The notes under the pieces: generated by a model
Databases searched by the model: none
What the model saw: the letters and a program-made list of their open reading frames with translations, nothing else
Told to the model about the DNA's origin: nothing
DNA from: Rhizaria sp. SCN 62-66
Taxonomy: Eukaryota
Length of the DNA: 64,000 bases
Direction: 5' to 3'
NCBI GenBank assembly: GCA_001724265.1
Contig: MEDY01000012.1
Coordinates: 62,001 to 126,000 of the forward strand
Position numbers and translations under genes: made by a program
In this document: positions 18,861 through 55,860 of the stretch, one piece after another
Layout of the letters: the number at the start of each line of letters is the position of its first letter
How positions within the stretch are numbered: position 1 is the stretch's first letter

Positions 18861-19315
18861 ACGATCAAGAAAGGGGATGACAGTGAGTTGCCATAGTGAA
18901 GCCAATCAAGTAATAACATAAATCAACGTTTAAAACACACATACAAAAGCGAAACACATACTTAACCATTCTTTGACGATGTATATAAGTTGGGTATTGA
19001 ATTTTCTTAACACGACCTCTTTGAGGTAACAGAACTCTATCGACTGTTCTCAAAAAATCGTAGCCAGCGGCCAAACAAAATGATTTTCCGAAGCGGGACC
19101 CCCCTGAGTAAAAGGAGACCACTTTGACGGTCATAGAGGCCTAGTTTGAAGCTGTAGTTTTTATCAAGGACAGTTTTATTGCTTTATTATTTCCTGGCAC
19201 GACGACTATCTTTGAATGGGTCACGCTTGTGCCGCTATGGAGGTGCCCTGGTGTCTCCTTTCCACTCTCGTCTCAGTCTCACTCTTTTCTCCTTGTCACC
19301 TGCCCTGTCCCGTAG

Positions 19316-24493: not shown

Positions 24494-25656
24494 TGCGCGG
24501 CTATTTATGAGACACACTCGATGTCTTACGATGTGCAAGCCGTGGAGGTGAAGCCTGGAAGTCCTGTGTGCGGAAGAAGAACTGTCTACGAAGTGACAAA
24601 GATGCAGACAAACAGACACAAAACAAAGCTGGTTAAAACGCTACAGCATCGTATTACACAAGGTCGATCGACAGATGCGCGGATTTGCATTGTTTACGTT
24701 ACTGCGCCGGTCTGTCGTGCTTGTTACTGTTTTGCCACCACGAAGCGAGATGAACAGGTTGTTGCGGGGAGCAGAGAAGCAGAACAGCAATTGCGAAGCA
24801 CAAAACCACCATAAACAGACATTAAATATACACGAAATTACGGTCAAAGTTCTGCGTCCGCGACTGAGCAAGCATAAACGCTCTCAAGACAGTCATTCTG
24901 GAAAACAACTTGGCGTAGCAGATCATTCCAGAGGAAGACAAAAGATCGCGATAATAGGCACGATAGACGCACGATGCAGGAGGTATAATTAACAATCTAA
25001 AAATAAATCCATATGAAGTATCAGGATTGCATAGTCATGGGTCGATATACGAACGTTTTCTTCGCGGTTCAATCTGACCAGCGATACCCCCCCTGTCCCT
25101 GCCATCTTCGCGCTGTGGTATAGAAACAACCACATTTGAGCAACTAGACTGCTCTCGAGCGATGTTCTCCGTCGTATACATTTCGGGCCATATGTCCAAA
25201 TTTTTGCGTTGCATTTCATATAATATTCGATTTATTTATTCGCATAATCTCGCGTCTTGGTACTTTAATTCATCATATCTTGCCTGCTCTCTCGACTCCT
25301 CCCACGCCGCGCCAACTCAAGCCCCCGTACGCGTTCCACAGACGCTTCCGGGTACTTCTAACACACAGGCTTCCGCCCAATCCACGTTCTCTGACTGAGG
25401 GAGCTAACACACACAGCTAGATTGCTTTCTAGCGCTTTCCCCTGAGTCAGCGAGCCGGTTGCTTTTCTCGGTCTCCTCGTTCGGCTCTCGCACTCTCTCG
25501 CCCTCGCTCTCACGGGCAGAGCGTCTTCTCGACCTCAGCCACTTGCGCTAGCGCACCTGCTCTCGCTTGAGCCCGCGTTGCCCTTGCCCCGCACCGCATT
25601 GCACGCTCGCTTTGCCTTATCTCCGCGTTCGACGCTGAGTGACAGAGCGAGCTTTG

Positions 25657-26195
25657 ATGTCCACCCATTCCGGTCCCAACGCCGCCGCAGCCGCTGCGGC
25701 CGCCGCGGCCGTGGGTAGTATTCCCGCGCCCGCGCCCGGCTCGCCCCCCGGGTCCGCCCCCAGGTCCCCGCCGCGCCCGCCGCGCTCACAACTTCAGTCA
25801 GGGGCCTTTGCCGCCGCACACCCGCACGCGCACCCGCACAGCGCTAACTACACAAACGCTAACGCGCAGCCCGCAGTCGCATCTGGCTTCAGTTCTGGCG
25901 CTGGCGCTGGCGCTGGCTCTGCTGCGGCCACGGGCGCCTCTCCGAGCCCTGCGTACGCGCACGTGAGCGCGCTGACGCTCTCGACCGGGCCCAGCTCCCG
26001 CTCCGTCTCGGCTGCTGCGGGTGATACTGCCACAACGGCTCACGCCGACCCAGCGGGCAGTGGCGCGCACGCGCTCGCGCCGGCACCCGTGACCGCGCCC
26101 ACACACATGCCCGTGCCCGACTCGACCCCCGCGTCGGGCTCCGCTCTGGGCACTGCGACCGCCTCTGCCTCAGCCTCAGCATCAACCTCTGCTGT

Positions 26196-26245
<50 letters not shown>

Positions 26246-38200: not shown

Positions 38201-41200
38201 TCGCGGCAGATGCGGCGAACCCGGCCTTGGCGTCACGGCCTACCAGTAGCAGCAGCAGTAGCAGCAGTGGGAGCGGCGGCGTCGCCGGCTCTGACAGTAC
38301 CAACCCACAGCGCAGTCTGTTTTTGGAGCAGCAGCGCATCATCTATGGCAACAACACCCCCGTCATCATCGCGACTGCGACTGGGAACACCCCCCCCAAG
38401 CCCGCTCTCCACGCCAGCACTAGGACAAGAGCCGCTGACTCTGTCCATGTCTCAGCCCCGATCCCTGGGATCCCGCGAGCTGCCGCGGTCACTGAGGCTC
38501 CTGCGGTCACAGCTAGCAACACCGCATCAGCGCCGGCTTCCAGCCAGGCTAACCGCCGCCGTCGCCACCGTCGTCCGGTCACCGTCGTCCCTCTGCCCGC
38601 TCCCGTGCCAGTCACCTTTCGCCGGCTTCCGGCCTCCTTTCTGGCGTCTCTGATCCCCGCCGTGTCCCGCGCCAAGCGCTACGCGGGCGTCATTGCGACC
38701 GCGGAGGAGGCCGCCGCAGCCGCAGCCGCCGCGGCCGCCGCATCTGCGGCCGCGGCGAGCGCCGCTGCGGCAGCTGTGGCTGACGCGTCCGTGAACGACT
38801 CGTGGCGCGAGGCCGTGCACGTGGCGGCGGAGCTGGCGTCGCGGCCGGATTTCCTGGGCGCGACTCCGTACTCGCTGCTGTTGCTGGGCACGCTGGCGAC
38901 GCTGACGCCTACGGTCGTCCCAGCGCCGTTCTTCCGCCACAGCCACAACGCGCACGCTGAAGCGGCCGGCAGTAGCGCTGGGATGGCGCCCTCACAGACT
39001 GCGGGCGCGGGCGATAGGTCGAGTCTGCGCTCTGCCGCTAATGCCGTCATCAACAGCAGCAAGAACGTGAATGCCGCGGGTGGCGCGCGCACTGCGACGG
39101 CGTCGAGTCACACCACGTCTTCGAGCGGTGCTGGCTCCACGGCTTCCGGCGCAAGCCAACAGTCGCCCCCCGCTCTCCAGTCCCCGCCCGTGTCGGTCCC
39201 GTTCAACTCTAACTACGGCGTCGTGACTGTGGGCGAGTACGGCTCGCGTCCCGGCTCGCCCGCCATCGCCCTCGGTCCTTCCGGTACCGCTGGCGGCGCA
39301 GTCGGCGCTGGCCACGGCCAGCAGCAGCAAATGGGGCCGCAACAGGGCTACGGGGGGATGTACACCGCCCGCGGCAGCGTCGTCAGTGTCGGCGGGCTTT
39401 CCCTGCACAACATGGGAGCGCCCAGCGAGTTCGACGGCGCGCCGAACGAGAACGGCAACAACAGCAACAACAGCGGTCAGAACAACGGCTCGTCTTCGTC
39501 TTCGTCGTCGTCAGCCGCATCGACCGCCACAGCCGTTCCTGCCCTCTTGCAGCAGCAGCCGTTGCCGGGACAGGGCCAGGGCCACGGCGCGAGCGCCGTG
39601 TCGCACCGCTACGCTCGCTTCGGTCCCGCGCCCATCATCGCCTCCACCGGTGCCAGCCCGGGCCACGGGCCCAGTGGCAGCGGCAACGGCGTGAGCGCGC
39701 TGGCGCTGCAGCCGGCGCCGCACACGGCGCTGATTCCCGTGCCGTCGGTGCTGCACCACCTGCCGCTGTCGACGCACGCGTCGGCACTCTCGCTGCCGCG
39801 CCTGGGCTACCACAAGAAGGCGTATTCGCTGACGACGCACCCGTTCCTCACGCCGCAGGGCAGCACGACAGGCCACCGCGGCAGCCAGCTGTCGGACCAC
39901 CTCACGCGCCTTGCCACGGTGTGCGTGCTCATCGTGGCGTGCCTCGTGCCGCTGATGGTGCAGTCGGACCCGGACATGGGCGTGCGCCGCGGCGTGTGGA
40001 TGCTTATCACACTGGCCGACTCGTCGATGCTCGCCTCCTCGGTGGCGCCGGAGCTGCCAGTCATCCAGCCCGTCGCGGACTCCGACGTTGACTCCAACAG
40101 TGCGAGCGCGAGTTCGAGTCCGAGTGCTGCGACCAAGAGCTCGCGGGACAGTGTGAGTGATGTGATGGAGCTCATGCAGTCCGCAATGCTCGGTCTCCCT
40201 CTCGCGCAGGGCGTGTTTTCGCTGTCCACGCGCACTGTCGCCGCTGATGCCGGAGACTCCGACGACGTAACTTATCTCAGCAGCGAGGATAGTGATGCCC
40301 AGAAACCACGATCGTCGCTGGTCAGTGTGTCCGCGTCACGCGCCCTTGCGCGCTCGCTTGCAGCGCTCACCCCAGTCCCAGTCGCGACTGTCGCATCAGC
40401 AATTTCCGACGCCGTAAATGCGGACACCGCGTCGATGACACCTGTGATGGGCCAAACCGACCAGAAGCGCCACGCCAGTCGTGCTGTGTTGAAGCGGTTG
40501 TGGCGTCTCGCGATGCACCCGCCGTCGGTTGTGCCTGCCGTCATGACTCCTCCTGCCGCCGGACGCAGTGTCGCTGAAGACGCTGCGAGCAAGATTCACA
40601 ACACGAGCACGGCAGCCAACGAGGATGACGACGACACGTGGGAGTGGGTTGTCTTGTCAAACAGCGGAGACGCGTTTTCACCCTTGGCCAACTACAGTGG
40701 CACAGGAACTGTGAACAGTCCTGAGTGCGTCGCTGTTGCGGCCTACATCACCGGCGCCGGCGGCGTCCTCGCCATCACCACGCGCACCGCACCGCAGTCT
40801 CAGTCCCAATCCCCGCGGAGCACGACCAGTCCCGAGTACACACTTCCCGGCCCCGGCGAGCCGATCGTGGACGAGGCCACGTGGTGCGCGATTCTGGAGA
40901 CGTTTGTGGCCCAGTTTGCACACAACCGCACGCCCGTTTTGTGGCTTGCCGTGAGCGGGAAACACGCCCAGGTAGAGTACATGCGAGGACAAACGGAGCT
41001 TACGACATTGTGGTCCCTTTCCGGGCTTCCGGGGTCTGTCACGGGGGCGTGGACCACCGCGTCCGCTCTCGCGGCACACGCGGCCGCTGCCGGTGCGAGC
41101 GCGCTTAAGACATCGTATGCCACAGTTGCGGGCGCGGTCAGGTGGGCTGCGGGGGCGCCGTTAAGCACTGACGATTACTATCGTGCGACAATCGATAGTG

Positions 41201-44200
41201 GCGTCACGAGTGACACCAACGCCGCTTCCGATGGCGTGGAGACGAGTTCAGCGAATGCGACTGAGAATTCGGATTCGAACATCACGGAGAATAGTGAGCC
41301 GGAGCAAGCGAGTGTTTATCTGGTTACACTCACGCGTCGCGGTGTGCGCACGGTGATTGCGACGACTGCCACATCACCTGAGGCCGCCAAGGCTGCCATG
41401 CTGTCACTGCCTTCGCTTGCCCCCCACTATGAGCAGCAGCAGCAGCAGCAGCAGCAAAAGGAGGACGAACAGCGCCTGCGTGCGGATAACATCAACGCAA
41501 CTCTGTCTGAGACCGACGCCGATGACGAGCCTACAGTCGGTGCCCGCGTCCCATCCCTGCCCGGCATCGGCAGCCCTAACACGGACGTGACGGTCCCTGA
41601 CACGCCTTTGTTCAACTCTCCCGTTCCTGCTCTGCGCCACGACCGCTGCGTCACCGCGGTCGGTCTGCTTTACACAAACTCGAACATGAAGGGCATCACA
41701 TTGCCGAGACCGACGTCGCAGAGCGTAACACTTGAGCACGCGATGAGCACACTTAATCCCGATCCGAGTGTTGTGGCGCAGTCTGATGAGACGGAGATGA
41801 TGGCGAAACGCAAGCGCGCTGCGATTGCGCTTGCCGAGCTTGGTGCTTTTGCTCTCCACACCACCGCCGCTGAGTCTAGCACAGAGAATGGAGTTCTCGC
41901 CACCTCTGCTGCGAATGCCCGCGCTACCGTGTCCCCTCGTGCATTCACCGTTTCTGGCGACGGTTTAGGCAGTGTCATTTACTCCACCACTCCGCTGCTC
42001 GCCGCCATGGCGCCGTTTGCCATCGCCTCGTTCATCGTCATCATCGTCGTGCTCTTGTTCGCCGGCCTCAAGTTCCACGCACTCAGTGAGACCCTCGTCG
42101 TCCGGCCGCTGCGCAACATGATGATGCTCGTGCGCGAAGTGCAGGATAAGCCGCTCACGTTCCACAAGCAGCAGCAGCGCCAGCCGCCGCCGGCCACGGC
42201 TGCCGCGGATGCGCCCGCGACCGCGGCCACGGTCAACGATACCGGTCTACTGGAGCGCACCCTTCTCAAGCTTTCGCTGCTCACACAGGTCGGTTTCGGC
42301 GAGGCCGGCGCGCGCATCGTCGCCACTGCACTGCGGCCCATCACGCAGCGTGCGCGCGGCGGAGCGGCGGCGACGATCGCGGCGACCAGCGCGATTGCGA
42401 CCGCGGCTGCGGCGTCGTGCGCGAATACCGCGGCGCTGTTTTCACCGTCGTTCCTTGCTCTCGCGGACGCGGTCGGTGCACGCATTGGCGAAGGACCACA
42501 ACCCATCATTTCTTCGAGCGAGAACAACAAGAACATCAATTGCAACGCCAGCAACATCGCCAACTCCGGCCCGGCTCCTACCGGCTCCGCTGGTGCGACT
42601 GGGCTCGCGAGCAGCGCCTCTGGCGCCACTGTGCGGGCCGGCGGCGCGCTCACCGTCGTCGCCCCGCCCACAGAAGCCGTTGTGCGCACTACGGGCTCGT
42701 TCCAGGCACCGATCTTTGCCTCCGCCGCCGCGACTAGCGCAGCTGCTGCCGCGGCTGCCGCGGCCACCGCGAGTGTGACTGCACAGGCTGCCGCTGCAGG
42801 CGCCAACGCAGGCGCCGCGACTATGTCCGTCGGCACTGGCGTCGGCGGTCTAGCTAGAAGCGCGGGCACTTTGGACATCACTCAACAGGGTCGCAAGGTG
42901 CTTGCGATTCTTGGTTTCTGCGACGTGCGTCAGTTCACGGACGCGACCGAGTACCTCCGTGACCAAGTCATGATTTACGTCAACGGTATCGCCGACATCG
43001 TCCACGAACAGACCACTGAGTGCCTCGGGTTCCCGAACAAGAACGTCGGTGACGCCTTCTTGCTGGTGTGGCGTCTGCCCGAACAGCTCTGGCGACACAC
43101 GCCGCCGGCGAGCCCGCAGCAGTCGTCCTCGTCGGGCTCCTCGTCGTCCTAGAACCTGTCGTCCTCGTCCTCGTCATCGTCGCCCTCATCGTCGACGTCG
43201 TCGTCGGAGAGCGAGACCGAGAGTGACGAGCGTGATACCGTGTACAGTTACATCACAAACAAGTCTGACACTGCTACGTCGACCGGCGCCGCGAACGGGC
43301 GCCACAGCCGCAGCGCAACAAAGGCGGCTCGCTTGTTCTACTCGAGCCGCAAGGCGAACAACACCATCGTTCCCGGCATGAACAGCCGCGCTGCCGCCGC
43401 TTTGCGTGCCAGCGGCGGCGGTGATCTCCGCAGCAACGGTGCGAATGACAGCAGCGACGATGGCGAAGGCGCTAGTGAGAGCGAGAGCACCCAACGTCGC
43501 CGCGCCCGTCGCACTCGCGTCGTCGCGGCCCGCGGCCTCGCCCACTGGCGCCACCACCGCACGCGCCGTGCGGCCGCGATCGCCGCTGCGGACGCAGACG
43601 CTGCAGCGTTCGCGGCGGCCGCGGCCGTGCCTCGCGATGACTCGAATCCGAACCGGAACAGCGGCGCTCTGCCGAATAACTCTCCAGTCGCTGTCACGGG
43701 GGCTGTTGACGGCGATGACTACGTTGGGCTGGCTGATAGTAGTGCCGGCGAGTCGATCGAGGCCCTTCTCTCCGGCAGCAGCGACAGCGAAGACCCGTAC
43801 GTGGAGGCGACTGAGGACGGAGATCTGGCCGTCATCTTTGGATTTGGGCTGCCTACCGTCACCTCAACCCCTGCAACCCAGTCTACGACTGCGCCGAGTC
43901 CTATCGCCAGCTCTGGCACGAGGAGCACAAGGGCCAACTCGACGGCCCTCGCGCTGGCCAACAACACTGCCAATGCGCCAACGCGCGCCGCACTGACGCC
44001 TGCTGCAGCGTTCGAGCTCTACACCGAGCACTACGCGCGCTTGCTCCTTGCGCAAAAGGTCATTTACGCCGCGCCCCAGCGCTTTATGGCCAGCGCGCGT
44101 GCCGTGGCCTATCAAAAGCTCGCGCGCAGCGACGCGGTGCGCACGGGCAAGCTCGTCGTTTCGGCCCCACCGACCGTCGCGCACTCGTGGGCTCAGTCGC

Positions 44201-47200
44201 ACGCTCACTCGCAGCCTCAAGGCATCGCGCGCGCGCTGCCGCGGCAGCTGCTGTCGCAGCTGTACGTCACTGCCGGATCTGCACTCGCCACGGTCACCAC
44301 GGCGGCTGCGTTCTTGCGAAGGTATGGTCCCTCTGCCACCGCGGCACCGCGCATTGCATCATCAGCTAAGCCACATGCGGGTAGGCAGAGCAAGCTCGGT
44401 GGTGCCGTCCGTGCTGATGTTGACGATGACGCGAACGCGAACACGCTGGCTCAGAAGCGGTTCGTAGCGCGCCTCCGTCGCCAGTTCGCTTTCACTGAAG
44501 AGTCAGATTCGGACATCGAAACGATCGCTGCAGCGGCTGCGGCCGAGGCGCGTCGTCGCCCTCGGCGCTCTAGACACGGCAACAGCACGAACTCCGACTC
44601 GTTCTCGGGCTCTGGTTCCGGCTCCGGCTCCGGCTCTGGCTCTCACACAGGCTCTGGCTCTGGATCCGGGTCGGACCACCGGCCGCGCTCTCGCTCACAA
44701 TCGCGTTCCGGCTCCGGCTCGGGCAGCTCACGCTCACGGTCCGGCTCGCGCAACCACATGCCCATCTCCGCTGTGACTGCCTCCGCCTACGGTTTCATCT
44801 TTCCGCGTTCGGGTAGTCTTCCCGCCGGCGGCAGCAACACGGCTGCGCTGAGCGCGGGCGACGCTGAGACCGAGCGCGCGCACCGCCGCCGTAGCAACAG
44901 CCACAACCGTAGCCGCAGCGGCAGCCGCAGCCGCAGCGGCATCCACACGACCGCTGACGGCAACGCCAACACCGATACTACCAGCGGTAACGCTGCCGTT
45001 GGCTCGAGTCGCGGCCGCGGGCACGAGGGCGGCGCGGGCTCGGCTATTGACGCGCTTGCCGCTGACGCTGGGATCCCGCGCTCCCGCTCGCGCTCGCAAT
45101 CGCGGTCGCGTTCGCCCCAGCTCAGCGCCCGCCGAGTGCGCTGGGCCGCCGCAGGCGGTGCTTCCGGTCCAGCCACCGGCGCCCCCGACGGCGGTCAGCG
45201 CCACAGCAGCGGCCGCAGTGGGCGACGCTCTCGAGCCCGCTCCGGCGACAGCGATGACAGCGACGCCGGGCCGCCCACGCTGCCCCCGCCGCGCGTACCG
45301 CCTGCGATCGCCGCCCTCATCAACGGCAGCAACAACAGCAGCAACAATAACAACAGCAAGGTGATTGCCCCGAGGGCTGCTTCTGGCACGAGCGCCGGCG
45401 TTGTCGGGACGCGCTGCAAGAAGCCCCGCCTGCCGCCCACCGTCCCGGTCCCGCCCGGCCTGCGCCTGTTCTTGTTTCCGCGTCTGCTGCGCCGCGCCTT
45501 CGCGGGCGGCGACACGGTGGGCGCAGACTCGCGCGGCAGGGACCGCGGCGCCGCGCGCGCTGCGAAGCCCGCGAAGTCTGCGGCTGGCTCGGGGGCCCGC
45601 AAGGGGAGCGCGCCTGATGGCGATGGCTACGATGACGATGACGACGATGACAACGATGATGATGATGATGACGATGATGATGACGACGACGACGACGACG
45701 ACGATGATGATGATGACGAGAACTTCGATGTTTTCCTCCTCTCGTCTCCGCCTGTCGCCCCCGCTGCCGTCCCCTCTGCACCGGCTCCTAACCCAGCGAG
45801 GTCGAGCACGAGCTCGGCGCAGCGCATGCAGACCGGTAATGCAGAGATGCCGGCCTCCGCCGCGGCTGCCGAAATCGCTGCTGCAGGTCCTGGCGCTGGC
45901 GTCGCCTATGGTGCTGGTCCGACTGACACAGTTAGAGTCTTCCCTGCCGATGGCTACACACAGAGCAACGAACACTACAACTACTACCGCGGCGAGAGTA
46001 TTACAGATGCTGTCATCAACGGCGGCCTTGACGGCAGTCCCAATCATTACCACAACGGAGGTGCTGGTAGCGGAGTCCACTCCGGCCACCCTGCCTACAG
46101 TCACTCTGCCCACGGTCACAGCCTCAACGACAACAGTGCTCAAGACGGCCACGATAGCGACTTCGACGACGAAGACGAGGACGACTACGACGATTACAGC
46201 GACACGCGTTCAATCTCATCCTCGTCTTCGTCCTCCTCCGCAGCTGTCGGTGAGCACCACAATCACCCCGACAACGGCACCCGCCCGCGCCGCCGCCGCC
46301 ACCGCCGCCGCGACAGCGTCGTGGGTGCCGCGCCGCAGGCCCAGGGCCAACAACAGCAGCACCATCGGCGCCGTCGCCGTCACCGCAACAGTCTGGGCGA
46401 CTCGGACGCCAGCGAAGACGTCGACCTCGACAACATCTACGCCAGCGCTGCCGCGGTCCATGGCCCGGGCGCCGGCGCCGGGCCGCGCGGCAGCGACGGC
46501 GACGGTGACGGCGACTGCGACGGCGTCGTCGGCGTCGGCGTCGGCGTCGGCGGCGAGCCCGATGACGCAACCGTGGCCGCGGCCGCGATGATGGCGCTCG
46601 TGCGCATGCAGAGCATCGCCTCAGTCGGCAGCATTGGCAGCGCGGGCAGCGTCAACACTGCTGCTGCTGCTGTCGCTGCGGCTGCCGCGACCGCAGCTGC
46701 TGCGGCGCGCGGGATGAGCAGCGGCGTGTTCGGCGGCTCCGGTGCCTTCGGCGGCAGCGTGTGCTTTGACCCCGCGGCGGCGTCGCTCGCGATGATGCCT
46801 GGCGGGGGCGCGTTCAACATGAACAGCAACGCTACCATGATGATGATGCCGCCGTCGCCTGAAGCGACTGTCGCCGCTGCCAACGCTGCTGCTGCAGCTG
46901 CCAACGTGGCTATTGCGTCGCAGGCCTCCACCGCCGCGAACGCTGGTTTGACGCAGCAGCAACACCAGGAGCAGCAGCAGATGCAGTGGCAGATGCTGTA
47001 CGACAATTTCTTCCAGCATCATTTGTTCATGCAGCAGCAGCAACAACAGCTTTGGCATCAACAGCAACAGCATCAGATGTTCTTGGCGTCACAAGGCGTT
47101 GTGCCCACACCGGCTGGACCCGGCCACACTTTCTTCCCCCCACCCGCATCGCCCGGTGGTGCCGCTGGTATGTTCGGTGCGACTACAAGCAACATCTCGG

Positions 47201-50200
47201 CTCCTGCACCGAGCCCAGCGCAAAGCCACGGCCACGGCCACATCATGGCGGCGCCGCCCGGCGGCGACCCCGGTACGGCTGATTTCGCGGCGATGTCGCT
47301 CGATTTCGACGAGATGGATTCCACCACGCTCGCTGCGCCCGTCGCCACAAACAACAACGCGAACCCACCGAAGACTAACATGAGCACGATCCCACAGGCA
47401 AGCACTGTTAGCAGTCAACACCATCTGCAGTATCCCGGCTCATTCAGCGGCGACGGCGGCAGCGTCCCTGATGGCCTCACCAACAACTCCAGTGCCGGCG
47501 CCGCCGGCGTCATCACTGCACCCGTCGCCCGCCGTCACCAGCAGTCTAGAGGCCCCAACGCCCCCGCCGCGCACGGCGGCCACACTCTCACAGTCAACCA
47601 AGGACAGACGCACACCCCTAACCACGGGCTGTTCTTGACCGAGTCGGTGCCGCCGCCCTCGGTGACCATCACGCCGGGCGCGCTGGGCCGCGTGACGAGC
47701 AGCACGAGCGCCACGACAAGCAGCAGCAACGGCACCACCACGACCAGCAACAGCAGCAGCAGTGGCGGCGCAGGCGCCGGCATGGTCGCGCTTGGCAACG
47801 CAGCGCCTCTCACCGGCGCGCCGCCGCCGCAAGTCACGGCGCGCTCCGGCGCTCCCCGCCGCGGCTCCCGCGCGCGCGCGCACTCGCGCTCCGGCTCGCG
47901 CTCCGGCTCCCGCTCCGGCTCGCGCAGCGGCTCGCGGCCGGGGTCGCGCACAGGGTCCCGGTCGGCCTCGCGCTCGCGCTCGCAGTCGCACACGGTCGGC
48001 GACGCCCCTGGCACTGCCGCTGGCGCGGCCACGACCGGGACCACCGCCACTACGGGCGGGAATGTTGCGGGCGTGATTGTAAACGTGAACCCGGTGATTA
48101 CCGCCGCGCACGGTCAAAACTCGACCGCGGACTCTGATGCGTTCATGAACGCGTCTCTCGCAGCCACGGACATGTGCGGCTTAACTTTGCCCGCACTGCC
48201 TGACCCCGACCCGCGGCCCGAGTCGTCGCTGGGGTACTCGTCGCTGCATCACAGCTATTTGCACAGCGCCACACCCTTGCCCGGCGGCGCTTACCGGGCC
48301 AGTCTCAGTATCGCCGGCCGCGCCTCGGCGGGCCCCGTGCCTGGCGCTGGCCCTGGGGTTCGCGCTGGTGCTGACGGCCGTGCGTCGTCTCGGTACAGCA
48401 CCGAGTCGGACGCGCAGACCAACACCACCAGCACGCACGCGGACACGCGCAGTGACACGCCCGCCACGGGCTCGGCCACTGGCTCAGGCGCAGGTTCTGG
48501 CACAGGTTCTGGCACTACCGGCTCCGGAACAGGCTCTGGCTCTGGCAATGACACTGGCACTGGCTCTGGCACAGGCTCTGGCGCCGGCTCCGGGACTTAC
48601 CCAAGCTCCAACGCGCCGTCGTCGAGTGCCGGTCGCTACGGCCAGTCACCCATCCCTGCCGCCGCAGCAGCTGCCCATAATAGCGCTGATCTCTCCCCTG
48701 TGCGCCACCTGTCGTTCTCGCCATCGCACTCGCCCTACCACAACACCGCCAACGCCAACGGCGCTCCAGCGAACCTTGCTGGCGGCTTCAGCTTTGGCGG
48801 TAGTGGCGACGCGCAGCTCTTCGCAACGCCCCCGAAGCTCGACTCACTTTTCGCCAACGCGTCGTTTGCGGGCGGCTCGTTCCTGTCTCCGACCGCCGCC
48901 GCGCTCGCTGCGGCCGCCGTCACGGCTGCCGCACTGTCCCCGGCCGGCGCCAAGCCCGCGACCGGCGGCCGGCCCGGAGCGGCAGCGACGACTGCGGCGC
49001 TGTTGTCCGCGGCGGCGACCCTGTTGCCGATGTCGACCTCGGCCGCCGCCGCCGCCGCGGCGTTCCCGTACTCGTCCTCGGCGCTCACGGCCGCGCTGTC
49101 GCGGCGGCTGCGGCCGCGGCTGGTGTACGACTACGTGTCGGGTCGCTGCGTGAGCTACGCCAAGCTGGTCCCGCTGCTGCGCGAGCGCGCGCGCGCGCTG
49201 GCCATTATGCAGACGCCGCCCCCGCGTCTCTGGGTGTCGTCGGCGGCCACAACGAGCGCCAACACCGGCGATAACGGTAATCAAGGCATGAGTCGGAGCG
49301 CAAGCGGCGGCAATGCAGCGACAAGAACACGGTCTGGGACGGTATCCGGCAGCAACAACGTTGCCTATGGCTCTAGTAGAAATACACTGAATGGAGCTGC
49401 AGGACGGTTCTTGCCCGGTAGTTTCATCCCTGCGCCAGGCGCATATAATGCTGCAGCGCCGCTTCAGATGCAGATGTCTATGGCGTCGATGCCTTTTGCG
49501 GCGTCTATGTCCCCCGGCTTTGGTGCCGCCGCGACATCTTCGTCGATGTTCACCGGAAGCGTCGCCGCCCCGTTCCCGTTCGCCTACCAGAATATGTTCC
49601 CCGGCGCCGCGACCGGACCTGCGCCCGCGTTCCCACATCCCCCGATGGCCATGCCTGCTTCCGCCTCGGCGCCTGTGCCGGGGTCGGCCCCAGTGCAGGA
49701 GCCGGGCCAGGGCCTGATGCTGCCCGCGATGGCCCCCGCGCTGCTCCAACAGACCGCGATGAACTCCTCCATGGTCGGCTCGGACTTCTTCCCGTTCGGC
49801 GCGACAGGCACGACGAGCGGCAGCGGCAGCGGCAGCGGCAGCGGCGTCGGCAGCAGTGGCGGCGCGTCCGCGTTCGCTGCTGCCCCGGCCAACAGCGGCA
49901 GCAACAACAGCCCCGGCGCGCAGGTGCCGATGCGGATGCCGCCGTCGTTTGTGCGCGTTAACAGCACCGGGCAGGCCTTCCCTGTTCTGCCCTACATGAG
50001 TGCGTACAATGCCGGCGTCAACCCGCAGCTCTCTCCCGCTCACGCCCAGGCACAGCAAGCGCAGGCATCAGCGTTCCATGCGTGCATGCAGCAGCTCCAG
50101 CAGCAGCTCCAGCAGCAGCAACAGCAGCAGGTTTCGACCAGTGTAATGACGCCGATGAACGCTGGCGTGAACAACGCGAGTCCTTTCGCCACGCCCGCGC

Positions 50201-51041
50201 GTGTCCGTGCTGCGGTGCCGTTTGTCGCTGCGCTGAACGCCCAAAGCAACGCCAGTAACACTGATCCTGATGGTGCAACGTCTGGTGCCGTGGCTGGTGC
50301 TCAAACCAGCATGAGCACGTTGGCGCCGCACACTCCCGTCCGTGTGGGTCCCGGCTCTGCTCTCGCCGCCGCTAGTGCCGCCGCGACTCCTGGCCTGAAC
50401 TCCGGTGACAGGCCAATGCCGCCGCCGTCGGTCGTCATCACGACGCCGCCGCCTTTCCCCGCCACAACCAGCAACAACGAAGGCGCAAGTGGCAGTGCTG
50501 TTCACACAACAAGCCCTAACAGCGGCCTTATCTTGCCTGCCTTTGTGCCGCGCTCGCCGTTCCCGGCCGCTTTCTGTCCATCTCTCGGCCTTGGCCTAAG
50601 TCACAGTCAGAACGCTGGCGCTTTCCCCCCCGCTTTTGCTTTTGGTGGGGGCGCGCCCGGGGGCTTGCAAGTGCAGCCCCCTGGGTCGCCGTTCTTTTAC
50701 CCGTCTTTGGCGTACGGGAGTAATTCTTATCTCGGCGCTGATGCGAACACTGGCGCTGCTACCATGGGCCCGGGTCCGAGAGTCGGTGCCAGCGATCTTG
50801 CCTTCGCACTCGCGCGCTCGCAGTCCTTATTCACCAGTCCGCTTGCAGCTGCGAACAGTGGTCTCTACAGCAACAACCCCGGTGCTGGTGCCGGTGCGGC
50901 GATGATGGGGACGCCTAGCTTCAGTCCTACAAATGCGTACAGCAACAACAACTTTGCAGGCTCTGTCCCCATCTTCTCGCCCTACTCCCCTTTCCAACCA
51001 CAACCGCCACAGTTCCCTTCCCCATCCATGACTCAACAACC

Positions 51042-51111
<70 letters not shown>

Positions 51112-54100
51112 GCTGCGGCGGCTGCCAGGCGTCAGAGCAACTTCGACCGCGCCAGCTCCCGCGTTCTGCGCGAGGTTGACTCTGCGCTAGTGAAGCTCAT
51201 CACGGGCGTGCGTACCAGCGATCAGCGCGCGCGCGAGAGTCGGCGCGCCGCCCGCGCGGCCGAGGGCGACACGGACGGGCTGCAGAGGCAGGCTCTGCGG
51301 TCGACCGAGAGCATTCTCGCTGAGCTGACGTGCAAGGACACGCTGCAGGTCGGCAAGAAGAACAAGGGCAAGAGCAAGAAGCATGGCAAGAACGAGCACA
51401 ATGGTTGCGTTTCTACGCTTGATGCTGCTTGTCCTCACGCGAACTCGCGGTCGTACCTGTCTTCATCCAGCTCCGGCAAGCACCGGCGCAGTAGCGCCAG
51501 CGGCCGCAGCGGCAGCAGCGCGACGCGGTCCGCGATCGCCAACGCCGTGCTAAGCTCGCGCCCCTTGGCGGCCACGATCGACGCCGCAGTGCTGTTGATC
51601 GCGTCCCAACGCATGGCCGACATGGCGCTGTCGTCGATCCTGCGCACCATCGTCGCCGTGCGCGCGTCGCCGGGGCTGAGCCGCATCGTCGAGGCGCACC
51701 TGCTCCCGTCGCTTCCGCACTTCCGCGTTGCGCTCGGCTTCGGCCTCCACGTCGGCTGGATGGTCGAAGGCGCGATCGGCTCCAACAAGAAGCTCGACGC
51801 TGCCTACGTCTCCCCGCACGTGCAGCTGACCGAGACGCTTGAGTCGGCGACGAAGCACTACGGCGTGCCGCTGCTGATGAGTGGCGAGTTCGTCGCGCTT
51901 CTGTCGCCGGCGATGCGCGTGTTGTGCCGCAGGCTCGACCGCGTGGTCATCCCGAACAACAGCTACACTGCGCCGACGGCCGCCGCGACGACGGCCGACC
52001 AGCAGCAGGTCGCGGCTGGCGGCGGCAAGACGGCGGCGTCCTCTGGTAGCGCTACTGCGTCGACTTCGAACGGCGGCGCAAGCGCAAGCGCAAGCGTGAA
52101 CGCGAATCAGAAGGCCGCGCTCTGGATGGATCTCTACACGTTTGACATCAACAACGAGGCACTCGACGACACCGCCTTCGGCCCGCTTTTGCCCGAAGAC
52201 CTCGAGCTCGCATACGCGGCCGTCACCGACGCACAGGCAGCGGCGCGCGCTGCGGCCGAGGAGGCCGAGGCAGCGCGCCAGCTGCAGCTGCAGTTGCAGC
52301 TCCAAGCCCAGGCCCAGGTGCAGGCTCAAGCCCGTGCACAGGCTCTTGCGCAGGCTCAGCAGCAGAACGCGACGCCTGCAAGTGCCTGGCGTGGCGGCAA
52401 GAACAACGGGGCGCTCGACGAGTCTAATGCCATTACCGGGACGCCTGGGACACTTATGCGCGGAAAGTCTCACCGCCGCAGTCTCATTCAGCAGCAACAA
52501 CAGCAGCAACAAATGGGCGATGCGCTGAACTCTTCGAACGGTGGTATTACGAGTGGTATCTTTGGTGGTGCAAACGGGTTTAACTTCAACGCCACCAATA
52601 GTGTCAATGGCGAGGCGGTCGCTTCTGTGACCGGCTCGGTGCGACAAAAGCACCGTCGTCGCCGTGGCAGTGCTATCAAGCAGTCGCTGCAGCCACAGAC
52701 CGTGTCTGTCCAGCAGCAGCAACAACTACAGCAAGGTGGTGACTTGAGCGTGCTTGAGCGTGCGAACTCGAACTCCTCCGGCTCATCGTCCGCGTCTTCT
52801 TCCGCCGCTGCCGCGTCTTCATCGTCAGCCGCGACGGCGACGACGAACAGCAGCAGCAGCAGCTCCTGCATCGTGACCATCGGCGCGCCCGTCGCGATGG
52901 GCAGCGGCCTGAACAACGCCAACTTTGGCGCGATCGCGATCAGCCCGTCGGTTACCGTACACTCGCAACATACCTCGTCATCGTCGTCGTCCTCGCTGCC
53001 CTCATCCGCCTCCACCGGCACCGCGGTGACCACCCCCGCCGCTGGCGCCGCCGCGGCCGCCTTTGGGTTTCCTCCCGCGGCTGCAACGACAAGTGATGCA
53101 ACCGCGACGCATATCAGCAACAACGGCAGCAGCGGTAGTGGCAATGGCAACGGCAGCGGCAGTCTCACCGCGGCAGCTGCCCCCCAGACGAGTGACTTCT
53201 TCACTCTTCCGGGACTCGACTTAAACAACAACATGAACCCCAATGTCGGCCCTCTCGGCGCTACTGGCCCCGGCGTTGGCGGCGTTGGTGGGGCAGGAAG
53301 GGGCTTCCTGCGTCCGACCGTCCTGGGCGACCCCCTCGACGTTGTCGTCGAGTCGGAGGGCGACGAGGAGGAGGAGGCCAACTCGCCGCGCAATCTCCTC
53401 TCGAACACCCACGCCAACGCTGCCGCCCGCGCGAACGCGCATATGCATGCTTCGCATATGCATGCTCCTGCCACCGGTCACACTCACGGCCACGACGCTG
53501 ACGGCGATGCGGTCATTGACCTCATCACGCCCGGCGCTGCCGCTACTGGCACTCGTGTCGCCAATAACCATCCCGGCGCGATGCGTCCCCAGCAGAACAA
53601 GCCGCGCGGCGGCGAGGAGGAAGGCGAGGAGGAGGGCGAGGACAACTACGACTTCAACGTCACGACCCCCGCGAGCATCGCCGTCGCCACGCTGTCTCGC
53701 CCTCGCGGCAGCGGCAGCGCGCTGCTGTCCCGCGGCGCCCACGGCAGCGCCGGCATCAGCCACAGCCAGAGCGGCAAAGCGCCAGCCGCCGGACTGCACT
53801 CGGACACGATGTACTACCGCCGCTCGCGCGACACGGCGCCGCCTACTCTCTCGCGCCCCGGCTCCGAATCAGTGTCCACGGCCGGCAACGGCGCCGGCGC
53901 CGGGGCGGATGGGACGAACGCGCACGACGGTGTCGGCTTCGAGTCGCCGCCGCCCATCGCCGCGATGCTTTCCCCCGTCGTGCAGCCGCAGCAGCCGTCT
54001 CAGCCTTTTGCTCCAGCTTTCGCGGCTGTTGCGACCGTGCCGTCGGCAGTGCCGCGCACATCGCGCGGCGCGTCGTCGCGCCCGGAGCTGACACAGTCTA

Positions 54101-55860
54101 ACTCGATGGACGCACGGCCCGAGCTCATTAAGGACGCCAGTAATGACACCGTCACAATGGCGACTGCGCTGGTCGAGGCGCGGCTGCAGCTAATGGTCAA
54201 CAACGCTGGTAACTCCAAGGCCGTCGTGACGCTGCCCGCGTACGAGGCCACTGGGCCCCGCCTCTCGGCCTCGCGTCCCGGCCCCGCCGGCTCTGGCTCC
54301 GGTCCGAACGCCGGCGCTGGCGCAGGTGCGGGCGGGCTGGAGAGGGGCAGTGTGACCGCGATGCGGCCTGCGCGTGGCTCAATCACAGCGGCAGCGACAG
54401 GAACTGGGGCGACTGGGATTGACAGCTTCGGGGCAAGCGCCACTGCCGGCACTGGCGCCCCGCAGCACCCCTACAGTTACAGCCTCGGGACCGCGAATCC
54501 GCCAAACTACAGCAGCTCGCTTTCGCCGTCGAATATGAACACGAGCGGGTACAACGCTGCCAACGGCATGATGTTCCCGTCCGCCCAGGGCCAGCCCAAC
54601 GGCTACCCGCACAGCCACAGCCCCGGCCACGGGGGGTACGACGGCAACGACGCGTCCTACTCGCAGTCGCATTCGCACAGCGGGTACTCTCAGAGCGGGT
54701 ACTCGCAGCTAGGCCGCGGCAGCGCGAGCGCCCACACGCTCCCGCAGCTGCTGCCGATGCCGTTCCTCGCCAAGGCCCCGTCCGACGGCTCTGCGTCGTC
54801 GAACGCGACGGGGTCGTCGCTGACCGTCTCGTCGCCCGGGTCGAGCACCAGCTCCGCGTTCCACGGCTTCGTGCCGTCGCCCAACAACAACAGCAGCAAC
54901 AACTACAACGGCAACTTCAACATCAACAATAGCATGAACAATAATACCAGCAGCTACAGTCAGAATGCGGGTTACTTCCCACAGAACAACAGCAACACGT
55001 TCGCGACGAACGCTGCGGTTGATATCTCTGTTTCCACCGTCAGTAGCAACAACACGACCGCCAGTGCTCTGCCCCCCATTCCCCCGACTCCCGCTGCTGC
55101 CGCTGCCACAGCATACGCCGCAGCCTCTGCCGCCTCTGCCGCTGCCGCAGCCACCGCCGCCGCCTCCGCTGCCGCTGCTTCCGCGGCCGCCAACGCCCAG
55201 CTGCCGTCCGCGCGCACGGCGGCGCACGCGCTGCTGGTCTCTTTGTTGCAGCAGTCTAGCGGCGGCCTGCGCGCTTTCGGAGATGACACCGTCTTCCGCG
55301 CGCGGTCTAGCGAGGGCCCCTCGCCCGCAGCTACGGCGCCCTTCGCGCCGCCCAGCCTCGAGTCGATGGAGGCCGAGTACGCGCTGTATGAACGCGCCGC
55401 ACTGGCCCGCCTTGACCCCGAAGACCTGCGCACGCGCTCTGGCCCCGCCTTCGTGAGAGGTTTTGCGCCGCTTGACGCCGCTGAGATCGCGCACTGCCGC
55501 GGCAAGGCGCGTGCCGCGCTGGCGGCGCTGGCGGACGCAGAGAACGCGGGGACCGAGATCGCGAGCAACGCCGCCGTGATGGCGCAGCTGCCGCAACTGC
55601 CCGCGCTGGAGGAGGGCCGCACATCGGTGCCGGTGACGGCGCTGCAGAGGGGCATCCCGCGCGCTTTCCACGCGCACACGGCGCTGGGCATGCACCACTA
55701 CGTGCGTGGGCGCTGGGGCCGCGCGCGGCTGCACCTGCTGCGCGCCGCCGAGGTGTACCCCGACGGCGACGAGTCGCAGCTCCCCGTGGTCAAGTTCATG
55801 GCTGAGCACAATTTCATCGCGCCGCCTGGGTGGAAGGGCTACCGTGTGCTCGAGCTGTAA
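25657..55860 (+). CDS. Giant voltage-sensor/ion-channel-like class III adenylyl cyclase fusion (Paramecium/Plasmodium AC-alpha type); 10,067 aa if the TAGs at 29218 and 43150 are read through
   Basis: Track ORFs 25639.., 29269.. and 43240.. share one frame. Family blocks occur in the expected order: S1-S4 (29905-30300, S4 MRYIRLVRMLRL), S5 (~39880-39960), S6 plus LVVRPLRNM (~42001-42160), GFGEAG (~42290), cyclase N-half (GFCDVRQFTD..NKNVGDAFLLVW, ~42870-43080), cyclase C-half (GFGLHVGW.EGAIGS.KLDAAYVSP, 51613-~51950), TPR-like tail ending APPGWKGYRVL (~55660-55857). Stop TAA. Confidence 0.8.
26197..26241 (+). repeat. Perfect (GGC)15 microsatellite, poly-Gly
   Basis: Read directly; in frame. 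Confidence 0.95.
26536..26607 (+). repeat. Poly-Gln (Q24), mixed CAA/CAG
   Basis: Read directly; in frame. Confidence 0.95.
29218..29220 (+). other. In-frame TAG (context PPSSGA*AAAHAG)
   Basis: GCG TAG GCC; 16 GC-rich sense codons lead to the next in-frame ATG with no AT-rich spacer. Confidence 0.7.
43150..43152 (+). other. In-frame TAG between the two halves of the cyclase domain (context SGSSSS*NLSSSSSSS)
   Basis: TCC TAG AAC; the Ser run continues on both sides, and the second half of the catalytic domain lies downstream in the same frame. Confidence 0.85.
45631..45717 (+). repeat. Poly-Asp tract (D7-N-D21), GAT/GAC
   Basis: Read directly; in frame within the cyclase insert. Confidence 0.9.
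51043..51105 (+). repeat. Perfect (CAG)21 microsatellite, part of Q23
   Basis: Read directly; in frame. Confidence 0.95.

What the first reader, a model, noticed from the sequence alone, without database searches (positions are those of the whole stretch)
42870..51950. A TAG lies inside a single cyclase catalytic domain, the strongest evidence for readthrough
Seen: the N-half of the class III cyclase (FCD, Asp at 42922; NKNVGD, Asp at 43051) ends ~70 nt before TAG 43150. The C-half (ADMAL..., GLHVG..EGAIGS..KLDAAY) begins at 51613 in the same frame. A Ser homopolymer runs straight through the TAG. No phase-0 GT lies between the conserved VWRLP and the TAG, so using the TAG as a splice acceptor would delete conserved residues. 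Known: these halves belong to one folding unit. Inference: stopping here would leave half a domain, so the codon is decoded, acts as a regulated switch between a channel-only and a channel-cyclase form, or the gene is freshly broken.
Basis: partly seen in the sequence, partly recalled or inferred. Interest (0 to 1): 0.85.

Follow-up and report, generated by a model that had tools for sequence, protein, structure and literature searches.

The report
In-frame TAG inside giant channel-cyclase gene
A huge gene for an ion-channel/adenylyl-cyclase fusion protein in an uncultured wastewater protist carries a real TAG codon between the two halves of its catalytic domain, which suggests that this organism translates TAG instead of stopping there.

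Summary
One frame, 29221-55860 (8,879 codons), contains a single stop, TAG 43150; the other five frames carry 75-277 stops. A profile of 66 relatives matches the read-through product in order: channel, helical region, cyclase N-half (42859-43116, 3e-43), TAG, cyclase C-half (51601-51990, 2e-47), TPR-like end.

- **Relative:** metagenome locus L003 has the same layout, with the halves 2.6 kb apart, in one uninterrupted 3,594-codon frame.
- **The TAG is real:** a 500-nt contig from a polyA RNA library of another study lies on 42933-43432 without change or gap.
- **Other TAGs:** two more long frames in the window are interrupted only by TAG (11675, 29218).
- **Gene ends:** the seven apparent gene ends use TAA or TGA and are mostly followed by a GC drop. 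The TAGs show no such drop.

Best reading: one gene, and TAG is translated, either as a rare sense codon or by efficient readthrough. The amino acid, the tRNA and the organism are unknown. A fixed nonsense allele is not excluded. The channel-cyclase family and UAG-sense codes are both already known.

The parts
25639..29217 (+). Possible N-terminal extension of the same gene (1,193 codons, low-complexity). It lies in the same frame and is separated from the rest only by TAG 29218.
   Evidence: GC1/2/3 is 0.71/0.68/0.82 in frame. No GC drop and no further same-frame stop follow TAG 29218. There is no family-profile match and no similarity to the N-terminus of L003, so its membership of the gene is inferred, not shown.
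29218..29220 (+). In-frame TAG number 2 of the window.
   Evidence: DNA-run contigs X2 record 1 and X3 record 9 lie on 28852-29713 with 0 differences. GC is 0.74 upstream and 0.79 downstream.
29221..43149 (+). Upstream part of the channel-cyclase frame (4,643 codons, P0001).
29860..30543 (+). Voltage-sensor / ion-channel-like transmembrane region.
   Evidence: Family profile positions 30-188, i-E 2e-16. Pfam Ion_trans E 2.8e-4, 20.6 bits, below the cutoff of 25. The family profile matches Cav and Shaker chains in PDB, best 1.8e-10.
41962..42336 (+). Last transmembrane helix plus the helical linker with the GFGEAG motif that precedes the cyclase.
   Evidence: Family profile positions 320-439, i-E 1.6e-24. 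ESM Atlas neighbours are Helical_RasGEFs (PF26726) clusters.
42859..43116 (+). Cyclase N-half, with FCD (Asp 42922) and NKNVGD (Lys 43039, Asp 43051).
   Evidence: Family profile positions 440-525, i-E 3.1e-43. The invariant family residues are kept. It is 70% identical (48/69) to L003.
43150..43152 (+). In-frame TAG, the finding itself. It lies 34 nt after the end of the N-half match, inside a serine run.
   Evidence: RNA-library contig X5 record 30 lies on 42933-43432 with 0 other letters and 0 gaps. GC is 0.62 upstream and 0.61 downstream, and no same-frame stop follows.
43153..51600 (+). Low-complexity insert of about 2,816 codons within the cyclase domain. It is rich in Ser/Ala/Gly/Gln/Asp runs and SR/SG repeats.
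   Evidence: Open frame, in-frame GC3 0.64-0.85, short tandem repeats only. In 89 relatives the same spacing is 55-320 aa, median 73.
51601..51990 (+). Cyclase C-half (GFGLHVGWMVEGAIGS..KLDAAYVSPHVQLTETLES).
   Evidence: Family profile positions 537-672, i-E 1.7e-47. It is 58% identical (73/125) to L003. PDB hits are class III cyclases.
55612..55851 (+). TPR-like C-terminal module, ending ..FIAPPGWKGYRVLEL.
   Evidence: Family profile positions 707-785, i-E 3e-15. It ends like the relatives do.
55858..55860 (+). Genuine terminator, TAA.
   Evidence: GC falls from 0.70 to 0.28, and four same-frame stops follow within 300 nt.
11675..11677 (+). In-frame TAG number 1 of the window, in an unrelated giant frame (2-17146, which ends in TAA).
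   Evidence: GC is 0.64 on both sides and no same-frame stop follows. No homologue evidence is available.

Best explanation
Positions 29221-55860, possibly from 25657, are one intronless gene. It encodes a giant protein of 8,879 to about 10,070 residues that belongs to the voltage-sensor/ion-channel + class III adenylyl cyclase + TPR fusion family, the type described from Paramecium and Plasmodium (AC-alpha).

Low-complexity sequence has been inserted into every linker. About 2,830 residues sit in the surface loop between the third strand and the following helix of the cyclase fold. TAG 43150 lies in that insert.

The ribosome of this organism passes TAG and inserts an amino acid. TAG is either a rarely used reassigned sense codon read by a cognate tRNA, or a stop that the release factor recognises so poorly that near-cognate tRNAs read through it. 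UAA and UGA end genes.

**Shown**
- Gene continuity across the TAG.
- The TAG is real.
- A gene-end signature is absent at all three TAGs.

**Inferred**
- That translation actually passes the codon.
- Which residue is inserted.
- How efficient the passage is.
For: 1. **Colinear family-profile matches on both sides of the TAG.** Model positions 440-525 and 537-672 abut.
2. **The downstream part is under selection.** The frame stays open for 4,235 codons. The C-half keeps nearly all invariant family residues and is 58% identical to L003. The protein ends like its relatives.
3. **The ortholog-like gene in L003 is uninterrupted.** It has 3,594 codons and ends in TAA, with its cyclase halves about 870 residues apart.
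4. **All in-frame stops are TAG.** The count is 3 of 3 in 17,559 codons; TAA and TGA are both 0. The same roughly 47 kb of repeat-rich coding sequence has no frameshift.
5. **No TAG at gene ends.** 0 of 7 apparent gene ends use TAG (5 TAA, 2 TGA). Six of the seven show a GC drop of 0.08-0.48, and all seven have 1-10 further same-frame stops within 300 nt. The three TAGs show neither.
6. **The TAG is unchanged in an RNA-library contig** from a study other than the probable source, with no splice.
7. **TAG is no rarer than the rarest ordinary codon.** ATA also occurs 3 times.
Against: - There is no direct evidence of translation through TAG.
- No tRNA lies in the window, and the genome is not held, so tRNA(CUA) and eRF1 cannot be examined.
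- Only one TAG (43150) is bracketed by homology. The other two rest on composition alone.
- TAG is about 40-150 times rarer than comparable codons (TTG 7.6, TAC 13.4, CAG 30.7 per 1,000). That is odd for a freely usable sense codon in nearly unconstrained low-complexity sequence.
- L003 has no in-frame TAG.
- By my rough count of single-base precursor codons, TAG is also the most accessible nonsense codon in this codon usage. "All three are TAG" is therefore weak evidence on its own.
- The catalytic Asn and Arg are replaced by Gln and Thr, so selection for cyclase activity as such is uncertain.
- The RNA library may contain DNA, and no silent stretch was laid as a control.
- Seven gene ends are a small sample.
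Confidence: 0.7

Rival explanations
1. Recent nonsense allele. The organism uses the standard code, TCG (or another codon) mutated to TAG in the serine run, and the gene is now truncated after half a cyclase domain. The downstream frame has not yet decayed.
For: - TAG is one base away from TCG, the commonest codon of the surrounding run.
- TAG is the most accessible nonsense codon with this codon usage.
- The catalytic Asn and Arg are already lost.
- In-frame TAG is very rare (3 in 17,559 codons).
Against: - It needs three independent nonsense hits in the three largest frames of one 64-kb window, with not one frameshift or other stop in about 47 kb of indel-prone repeats.
- The TAG is identical in a run of another study, dated ten years after the probable source run.
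- The Asn-to-Gln change is shared with the intact L003 gene, so it is not a sign of decay.
Confidence: 0.15
2. Genuine termination with a functional split or a switch. Most ribosomes stop at 43150 and make a channel-only protein. The C-terminal part is made separately, from an internal start or its own transcript, or only by rare programmed readthrough.
For: The TAG lies exactly between two structural halves in a disordered loop. Known programmed readthrough does produce two isoforms (general knowledge, not tested here).
Against: - The three TAGs share no sequence context: the next bases are AAC, CAA and GCC.
- No unusual RNA structure lies downstream (z -1.02, +0.41, +0.50).
- The first ATG after the TAG would leave about 2,740 low-complexity residues ahead of half a domain.
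- The relatives are single chains.
- The same pattern occurs in an unrelated gene, at 11675.
Confidence: 0.1
3. The TAG is removed from the mRNA by an intron, either a small one or the whole 43081-51612 stretch.
For: None was found.
Against: - An RNA-library contig covers 42933-43432 without a gap, and others lie at 43950-44316 and 46523-46836.
- The 8.5 kb is an open frame with coding GC3.
- L003 keeps its counterpart in frame.
- There is no phase-0 GT before the TAG.
- No intron is needed anywhere else in 30 kb.
Confidence: 0.03
4. Assembly or base-call error at 43150.
For: The site lies in a low-complexity run where short-read contigs break. X2 record 6 ends at 43080.
Against: An independently assembled contig from another study has the same letters, and no run shows an alternative letter at 43150-43152.
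Confidence: 0.02

Closest known systems
Ion-channel/adenylyl-cyclase fusion proteins of alveolates (Paramecium AC, Plasmodium AC-alpha, Toxoplasma and Cryptosporidium homologues). Source: passages of PMC3283738, which cites Schultz 1992 and Weber 2004. I saw those two only as references.
   Same: The order of modules is the same: an N-terminal voltage-sensor/channel-like membrane part, one class III cyclase domain, and a TPR-like C-terminus. Relatives carry a variable loop of 55-320 residues at the same place in the cyclase.
   Different: - It is about ten times longer than the relatives of 700-1,200 residues used for the profile.
- It has a loop of about 2,830 residues inside the catalytic domain.
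- It has an in-frame TAG.
- The transition-state Asn is Gln and the Arg is Thr.
- The family is not confined to alveolates. Named hits come from transcriptomes labelled as the cercozoan Mataza and the euglenid Ploeotia.
Nuclear codes in which UAG alone is a sense codon while UAA and UGA stay stops. Examples: the rhizarian exLh (UAG=Leu) and Iotanema spirale (UAG=Gln) (PMC5304391, passages), and phyllopharyngean ciliates (PMC11687900, abstract).
   Same: In-frame stops are exclusively UAG, and genuine ends are UAA or UGA. The paper describes UAG as scarce in I. spirale, as it is here.
   Different: - Here there are only 3 UAGs in 17,559 codons of one window. exLh has 384 in 71 genes.
- No conserved-position alignment, suppressor tRNA or eRF1 is available.
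- The genome is 58-74% GC and the lineage is unresolved.
Metagenome locus L003, ORF 4448-15232
   Same: It is the closest relative found. The HSPs are colinear (channel 27%, N-half 70%, C-half 58%, C-terminus 44%). It also has a long in-frame insert in the cyclase and shares the SPHVQ motif, that is, Asn to Gln.
   Different: It has 3,594 codons, 52.6% GC and no in-frame stop. Its insert is about 870 residues, against about 2,830 here.

Membership tests
Class III nucleotidyl cyclase (Pfam Guanylate_cyc, PF00211) | Significant match to the Pfam model | tested here: not met
   No PF00211 hit on either half or on the read-through translation at E<=10. Of 10 relatives scanned, 3 pass the cutoff (P0005, P0010, P0012), 2 fall just below it and 5 have no hit. 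The Pfam model is simply insensitive to this subfamily.
Class III nucleotidyl cyclase (Pfam Guanylate_cyc, PF00211) | Class III cyclase fold formed by both halves together | tested here: met
   This was shown for relative P0010, not for the window protein itself. The model has mean pLDDT 81.8. Foldseek gives probability 1.00 to OaPAC (4yut), bPAC and CyaC (TM over target 0.78-0.79). The family profile matches bPAC at 6e-14. The window halves align to this family at 3e-43 and 2e-47.
Class III nucleotidyl cyclase (Pfam Guanylate_cyc, PF00211) | Two metal-binding Asp residues (role recalled from the literature on class III cyclases) | tested here: met
   Asp 42922 (FCD) falls in family column 461 (D in 64/66). 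Asp 43051 (GD) falls in column 504 (D in 65/66).
Class III nucleotidyl cyclase (Pfam Guanylate_cyc, PF00211) | Substrate-defining Lys and Asp (role recalled) | tested here: met
   Lys in NKN falls in column 500 (K in 64/66). Asp in KLD falls in column 603 (D in 61/62 with a residue).
Class III nucleotidyl cyclase (Pfam Guanylate_cyc, PF00211) | Transition-state Asn and Arg (role recalled) | tested here: not met
   Column 612 is Gln here, while the family has N in 51/61. Column 616 is Thr here, while the family has R in 35/61 and T in 6/61. L003 also has Gln. Catalytic competence is therefore open.
Ion-channel / adenylyl-cyclase / TPR fusion family (Paramecium and Plasmodium AC-alpha type) | N-terminal voltage-sensor/channel-like membrane domain | tested here: met
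   Family profile positions 30-188 match at 2e-16. Pfam Ion_trans scores 20.6 bits, below the cutoff of 25. The family profile matches Cav and Shaker chains.
Ion-channel / adenylyl-cyclase / TPR fusion family (Paramecium and Plasmodium AC-alpha type) | Channel, one cyclase domain and a TPR-like end, colinear in one polypeptide | tested here: met
   There are five colinear profile matches in one frame. This holds only if TAG 43150 is read through. L003 shows the same order without any stop.
Ion-channel / adenylyl-cyclase / TPR fusion family (Paramecium and Plasmodium AC-alpha type) | Ion conductance and a pore motif after the sixth helix | not tested
   The pore region (profile positions 189-319) matched only weakly (201-233, i-E 0.063). 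The motif was not examined.
Nuclear genetic code with UAG as a sense codon | In-frame UAG inside genes whose continuity is shown by homology | tested here: met
   This is shown for one codon, 43150. For 11675 and 29218 it rests only on an open frame, GC3 and the missing gene-end signature.
Nuclear genetic code with UAG as a sense codon | UAG absent from genuine termination sites | tested here: inconclusive
   0 of 7 apparent ends use UAG (5 TAA, 2 TGA). The sample is too small, and most of these genes have no homologue to fix their ends.
Nuclear genetic code with UAG as a sense codon | Cognate tRNA(CUA) and/or an altered eRF1 | not testable with these tools
   The window holds 0 tRNA genes and the genome is not held.
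Nuclear genetic code with UAG as a sense codon | Amino-acid meaning inferred from conserved alignment columns | tested here: inconclusive
   All three TAGs lie in sequence that cannot be aligned.

The most novel reading that the evidence does not exclude
An uncultured, GC-rich (58-74%) protist of wastewater reactors, without close sequenced relatives, has removed UAG from its set of terminators. It decodes UAG with a cognate tRNA as a still very rare sense codon, which would be an early stage of stop-codon capture. In such a stage UAG survives mainly in nearly unconstrained low-complexity inserts of giant genes.

That would be a new, independent UAG-only reassignment in a lineage outside the ciliates, the Sainouroidea and the Fornicata. 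It would also be observed at a point where the codon frequency is still near zero.
Probability: 0.4. Interest if true: 0.75.

Novelty: new member of a known kind. Interest (0 to 1): 0.6.

Why it matters
**Annotation.** If TAG is translated, gene callers that use the standard or bacterial code cut this organism's genes at every TAG. In this window a channel-cyclase of about 9,000-10,000 residues would be split into two or three \"proteins\".

**Evolution of the code.** The papers read here report UAG-only reassignments from a few lineages only: a sainouroid rhizarian, the fornicate Iotanema and phyllopharyngean ciliates (PMC5304391, PMC11687900). A case in which the codon is almost unused would bear on how stop codons are captured. 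The two routes discussed for such changes, as I recall them, are an unassigned or rare codon first, or an ambiguous intermediate.

**Protein architecture.** The gene shows that a class III cyclase fold can be encoded with about 2,800 disordered residues inside one surface loop. It also shows that the channel-cyclase-TPR family reaches beyond alveolates.

Tried and rejected
- **Pfam on the halves and on the read-through translation:** no cyclase hit.
- **phmmer of the N-half against PDB:** nothing. One search failed because I gave the wrong frame; I corrected it.
- **Word-indexed homologue search with the N-half region of P0001:** nothing at lengths 2,553-8,126. The exhaustive search then found 1,524 relatives.
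- **Whole-genome search:** no genome is held.
- **tRNA and Rfam scans of the window:** empty.
- **Identity of the organism:**
  - The sterol-sensing-domain ORF found only itself.
  - L003's site-1 protease has 40-42% hits spread over Amoebozoa, animals and plants.
  - Of 20 cyclase relatives looked up, only 2 carry a species label (Mataza, Ploeotia).
  - Rosculus, a sainouroid with a genome, has 37.7% GC and does not fit.
  - I first thought of a kinetoplastid because of strand-coherent ORFs. I dropped that after finding minus-strand ORFs with high GC3 at 17.5-23.2 kb and only a weak Bodo hit.
- **TAG 29218:** L003's N-terminus shows no similarity to 25639-29217, so its status rests on composition only.
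- **Readthrough signals:** no shared context and no unusual downstream RNA structure.
- **More sequence of the organism:**
  - An exact 40-mer from the window's right end was not found in viral contigs.
  - The metagenome scan returned relatives but not the window's own contig.
  - The 13 loci with GC of 0.63 or more hold compact genes, 11 ending in TGA, L070 in TAA and L079 with no stop recorded, and no inner stops, so they give no help on the code.
- **Meaning of TAG from other loci (L026, L027, L030):** their TAGs fall in variable columns.
- **DNA runs X2-X4:** no listed piece bridges 43150. The list is cut, so this says nothing either way.
- **Not run:** Complex prediction on the two halves, because a pass would not have changed my odds.

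Full report
**What is there**

The window is 58-74% GC and no genome is held for it. In the frame of the finding the only stops between 25636 (TGA) and 55858 (TAA) are two TAGs, at 29218 and 43150.

The stretch 29221-55857 is 8,879 codons with one stop. The other five frames of the same stretch hold 75-277 stops. In-frame GC3 (0.63-0.95) exceeds GC1 and GC2 in most bins of 300 or 900 nt across both TAGs.

- FCD has its Asp at 42922.
- NKNVGD has its Asp at 43051.
- The TAG sits inside SSSSGSSSS*NLSSSSSSSS.
- All GTs between VWRLP and the TAG are in phase 2.

**Is it one cyclase domain?**

Pfam finds no Guanylate_cyc on either half or on the read-through translation, even at E<=10. The N-half alone finds no PDB chain. 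The C-half finds class III cyclases weakly: 14 of 16 hits, best E 0.018.

An exhaustive phmmer search with 42088-43149 found 1,524 relatives at E<=1e-3 and 938 at E<=1e-10. I scanned ten of them with Pfam. They show Ion_trans at the N-terminus, Guanylate_cyc (3 above the cutoff, 2 just below) and TPR at the C-terminus. This is the channel/cyclase/TPR architecture described for Paramecium and Plasmodium AC-alpha (passages of PMC3283738).

I built a profile of 804 positions from the 66 listed hits of 700-1,200 residues. That is 66 of the 150 listed; shorter and longer hits were left out. It matches the read-through translation in order:

| Profile positions | Window coordinates | i-E |
|---|---|---|
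| 30-188 | 29860-30543 | 2e-16 |
| 320-439 | 41962-42336 | 1.6e-24 |
| 440-525 | 42859-43116 | 3.1e-43 |
| (TAG 43150) | | |
| 537-672 | 51601-51990 | 1.7e-47 |
| 707-785 | 55612-55851 | 3e-15 |

The two cyclase matches are adjacent in the model and 8,484 nt apart in the DNA.

The family profile matches solved bPAC and OaPAC cyclases (6e-14 and about 1e-9) and Cav/Shaker channels. A model of relative P0010 (mean pLDDT 81.8) has the class III fold (Foldseek probability 1.00; CyaC TM over target 0.78-0.79). The break point maps to a disordered loop between strand 352-358 and helix 416-440. In 89 relatives that spacing is 55-320 residues, median 73. Here it is about 2,830.

**A relative without the stop**

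A scan of metagenome contigs with the family alignment gave 80 loci. L003 (52.6% GC) is the closest, and its gene has the same expanded layout in a single frame:
- The ORF 4448-15232 has 3,594 codons, no in-frame stop, and ends in TAA.
- The cyclase halves lie at 9242-10204 and 12830-13615.

BLASTP against the window's read-through product gives colinear HSPs: channel 27%, N-half 70% (48/69), C-half 58% (73/125), C-terminus 44%. The split-by-insert cyclase is therefore an inherited feature of one gene, and the part downstream of the TAG has been kept by selection.

**Is the TAG real, spliced out or edited?**

The window's DNA is held by wastewater, bioreactor and activated-sludge runs of several studies dated 2015 to 2025. 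I laid four runs on 28500-48499:
- A 500-nt contig of a polyA RNA library from a study other than the probable source lies on 42933-43432 with 0 differences and 0 gaps, and so bridges the TAG.
- Other contigs of that library lie inside the insert, at 43950-44316 and 46523-46836.
- No run shows another letter at 43150 or 29218.
- DNA-run contigs bridge 29218 unchanged.

Three caveats apply. These are contigs and not reads. DNA can be present in an RNA library, and I had no call left to lay a silent control stretch. X2 and X3 look like the same data.

**Is TAG a stop in this organism?**

The window holds a third in-frame TAG, at 11675, in an unrelated giant frame (2-17146) that ends in TAA. In 17,559 codons of the four best-supported frames there are 3 TAG, 0 TAA and 0 TGA. 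The sense codon ATA also occurs only 3 times.

One search compared the three TAGs with the seven apparent gene ends (5 TAA, 2 TGA):

| Site type | GC, 200 nt upstream / downstream | Further same-frame stops within 300 nt |
|---|---|---|
| Three TAGs | 0.64/0.64, 0.74/0.79, 0.62/0.61 | none |
| Seven gene ends | for example 0.70/0.28 and 0.76/0.28; six of seven drop | 1-10 |

One gene end, 58337 on the minus strand, has no GC drop (0.47/0.53).

About 47 kb of indel-prone, repeat-rich coding sequence carries no frameshift. That argues against a decaying genome.

No readthrough context is shared by the three sites. The 120 nt after each TAG fold no better than shuffles (z -1.02, +0.41, +0.50).

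**Results that cut the other way**

- TAG is far rarer than comparable codons.
- L003 has no in-frame TAG.
- Only 43150 is bracketed by homology. The stretch 25639-29217 matches neither the profile nor L003.
- The catalytic Asn and Arg are Gln and Thr. The Gln is shared with L003, so it marks a subfamily and is not a sign of decay.
- With this codon usage TAG is the easiest nonsense codon to reach.
- tRNA(CUA) and eRF1 could not be examined.

**Organism**

The organism is unresolved. The window's sterol-sensing-domain ORF has no relative beyond itself. L003's site-1 protease has 40-42% hits scattered over eukaryotes.

Named members of the cyclase family among 20 looked up come from transcriptomes labelled Mataza (Cercozoa) and Ploeotia (Euglenida). 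Known UAG-only codes are the sainouroid exLh (Leu) and Iotanema (Gln) (PMC5304391, passages) and phyllopharyngean ciliates (PMC11687900, abstract).

Two searches bear on whether this is in print. One combined UAG, Rhizaria, genetic code and leucine. The other combined stop codon reassignment, UAG, activated sludge and eukaryot. In their listings I saw nothing about a GC-rich sludge protist. The sainouroid Rosculus has 37.7% GC.

**Verdict**

The region is one gene for a giant channel-cyclase-TPR protein, and TAG 43150 lies in a hugely expanded surface loop of its catalytic domain.

| Reading | Confidence |
|---|---|
| TAG is translated in this organism (rare sense codon or efficient readthrough) | 0.7 |
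| Fixed nonsense allele | 0.15 |
| True stop with a split or switch | 0.1 |
| Intron | 0.03 |
| Sequencing or assembly error | 0.02 |

Both the protein family and UAG-sense codes are known kinds. The new points are the host lineage, the near-zero usage of the codon and the size of the insert.

Noticed in passing
window 2-17146 (+), TAG at 11675: A second giant frame (3,891 + 1,822 codons, open at the window's left edge, ending in TAA at 17144) is interrupted only by a TAG. It has no Pfam family on either side, and no gene-end signature follows the TAG.
   Followed up: partly
window 25639-29220 (+): A frame of 1,193 low-complexity codons (polyQ, polyG, polyA) runs directly into the channel-cyclase frame through TAG 29218. 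The next ATG is only 45 nt downstream, while tandem intergenic spacers elsewhere in the window are 342-781 nt. It is probably an N-terminal extension, which would make the protein about 10,070 residues long.
   Followed up: partly
window, four best-supported frames (17,559 codons): The isoleucine codon ATA is almost unused: 3 occurrences, against ATC 289 and ATT 104. That is as rare as in-frame TAG.
   Followed up: no
window 51883-51897 and L003 ORF residues about 2866-2876: The cyclase motif reads SPHVQ (Gln) where 51 of 61 relatives have Asn. The following Arg (35 of 61) is Thr in the window and Ser in L003. This may be a catalytically altered or inactive subfamily.
   Followed up: partly
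L030:849-2990: A channel-cyclase homologue on a 3.1-kb metagenome contig (49% GC) has five in-frame TAGs and no in-frame TAA or TGA. It may come from another organism that reads UAG as sense. The TAGs fall in variable columns, so no residue could be inferred.
   Followed up: partly
L029, L031, L048, L050, L066, L067: Channel-cyclase homologues here have many in-frame TAA and TAG codons, as expected for ciliates with UAR as sense codons.
   Followed up: no
L003:3-3335 (-), 15782-16951 (+), 18670-20205 (+): The neighbours of the intact relative are a site-1 protease (MBTPS1 domains, one 1,111-codon frame), a protein kinase and a protein with five LIM domains. All are single open frames, so this organism too seems poor in introns.
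   Followed up: partly
window 58337-61879 (-): A 1,180-codon ORF with a weak sterol-sensing-domain match (E 3.8e-4, below the cutoff). Its only hit among 5.8 billion clustered proteins is itself, seen on 3 contigs, the longest 168,417 nt.
   Followed up: partly
window 38000-47999 in public runs: The same sequence, with 0 differences in most of the listed contig pieces, occurs in reactor and wastewater runs of several studies dated 2015 to 2025. The organism therefore seems a recurrent, nearly clonal inhabitant of such systems.
   Followed up: partly
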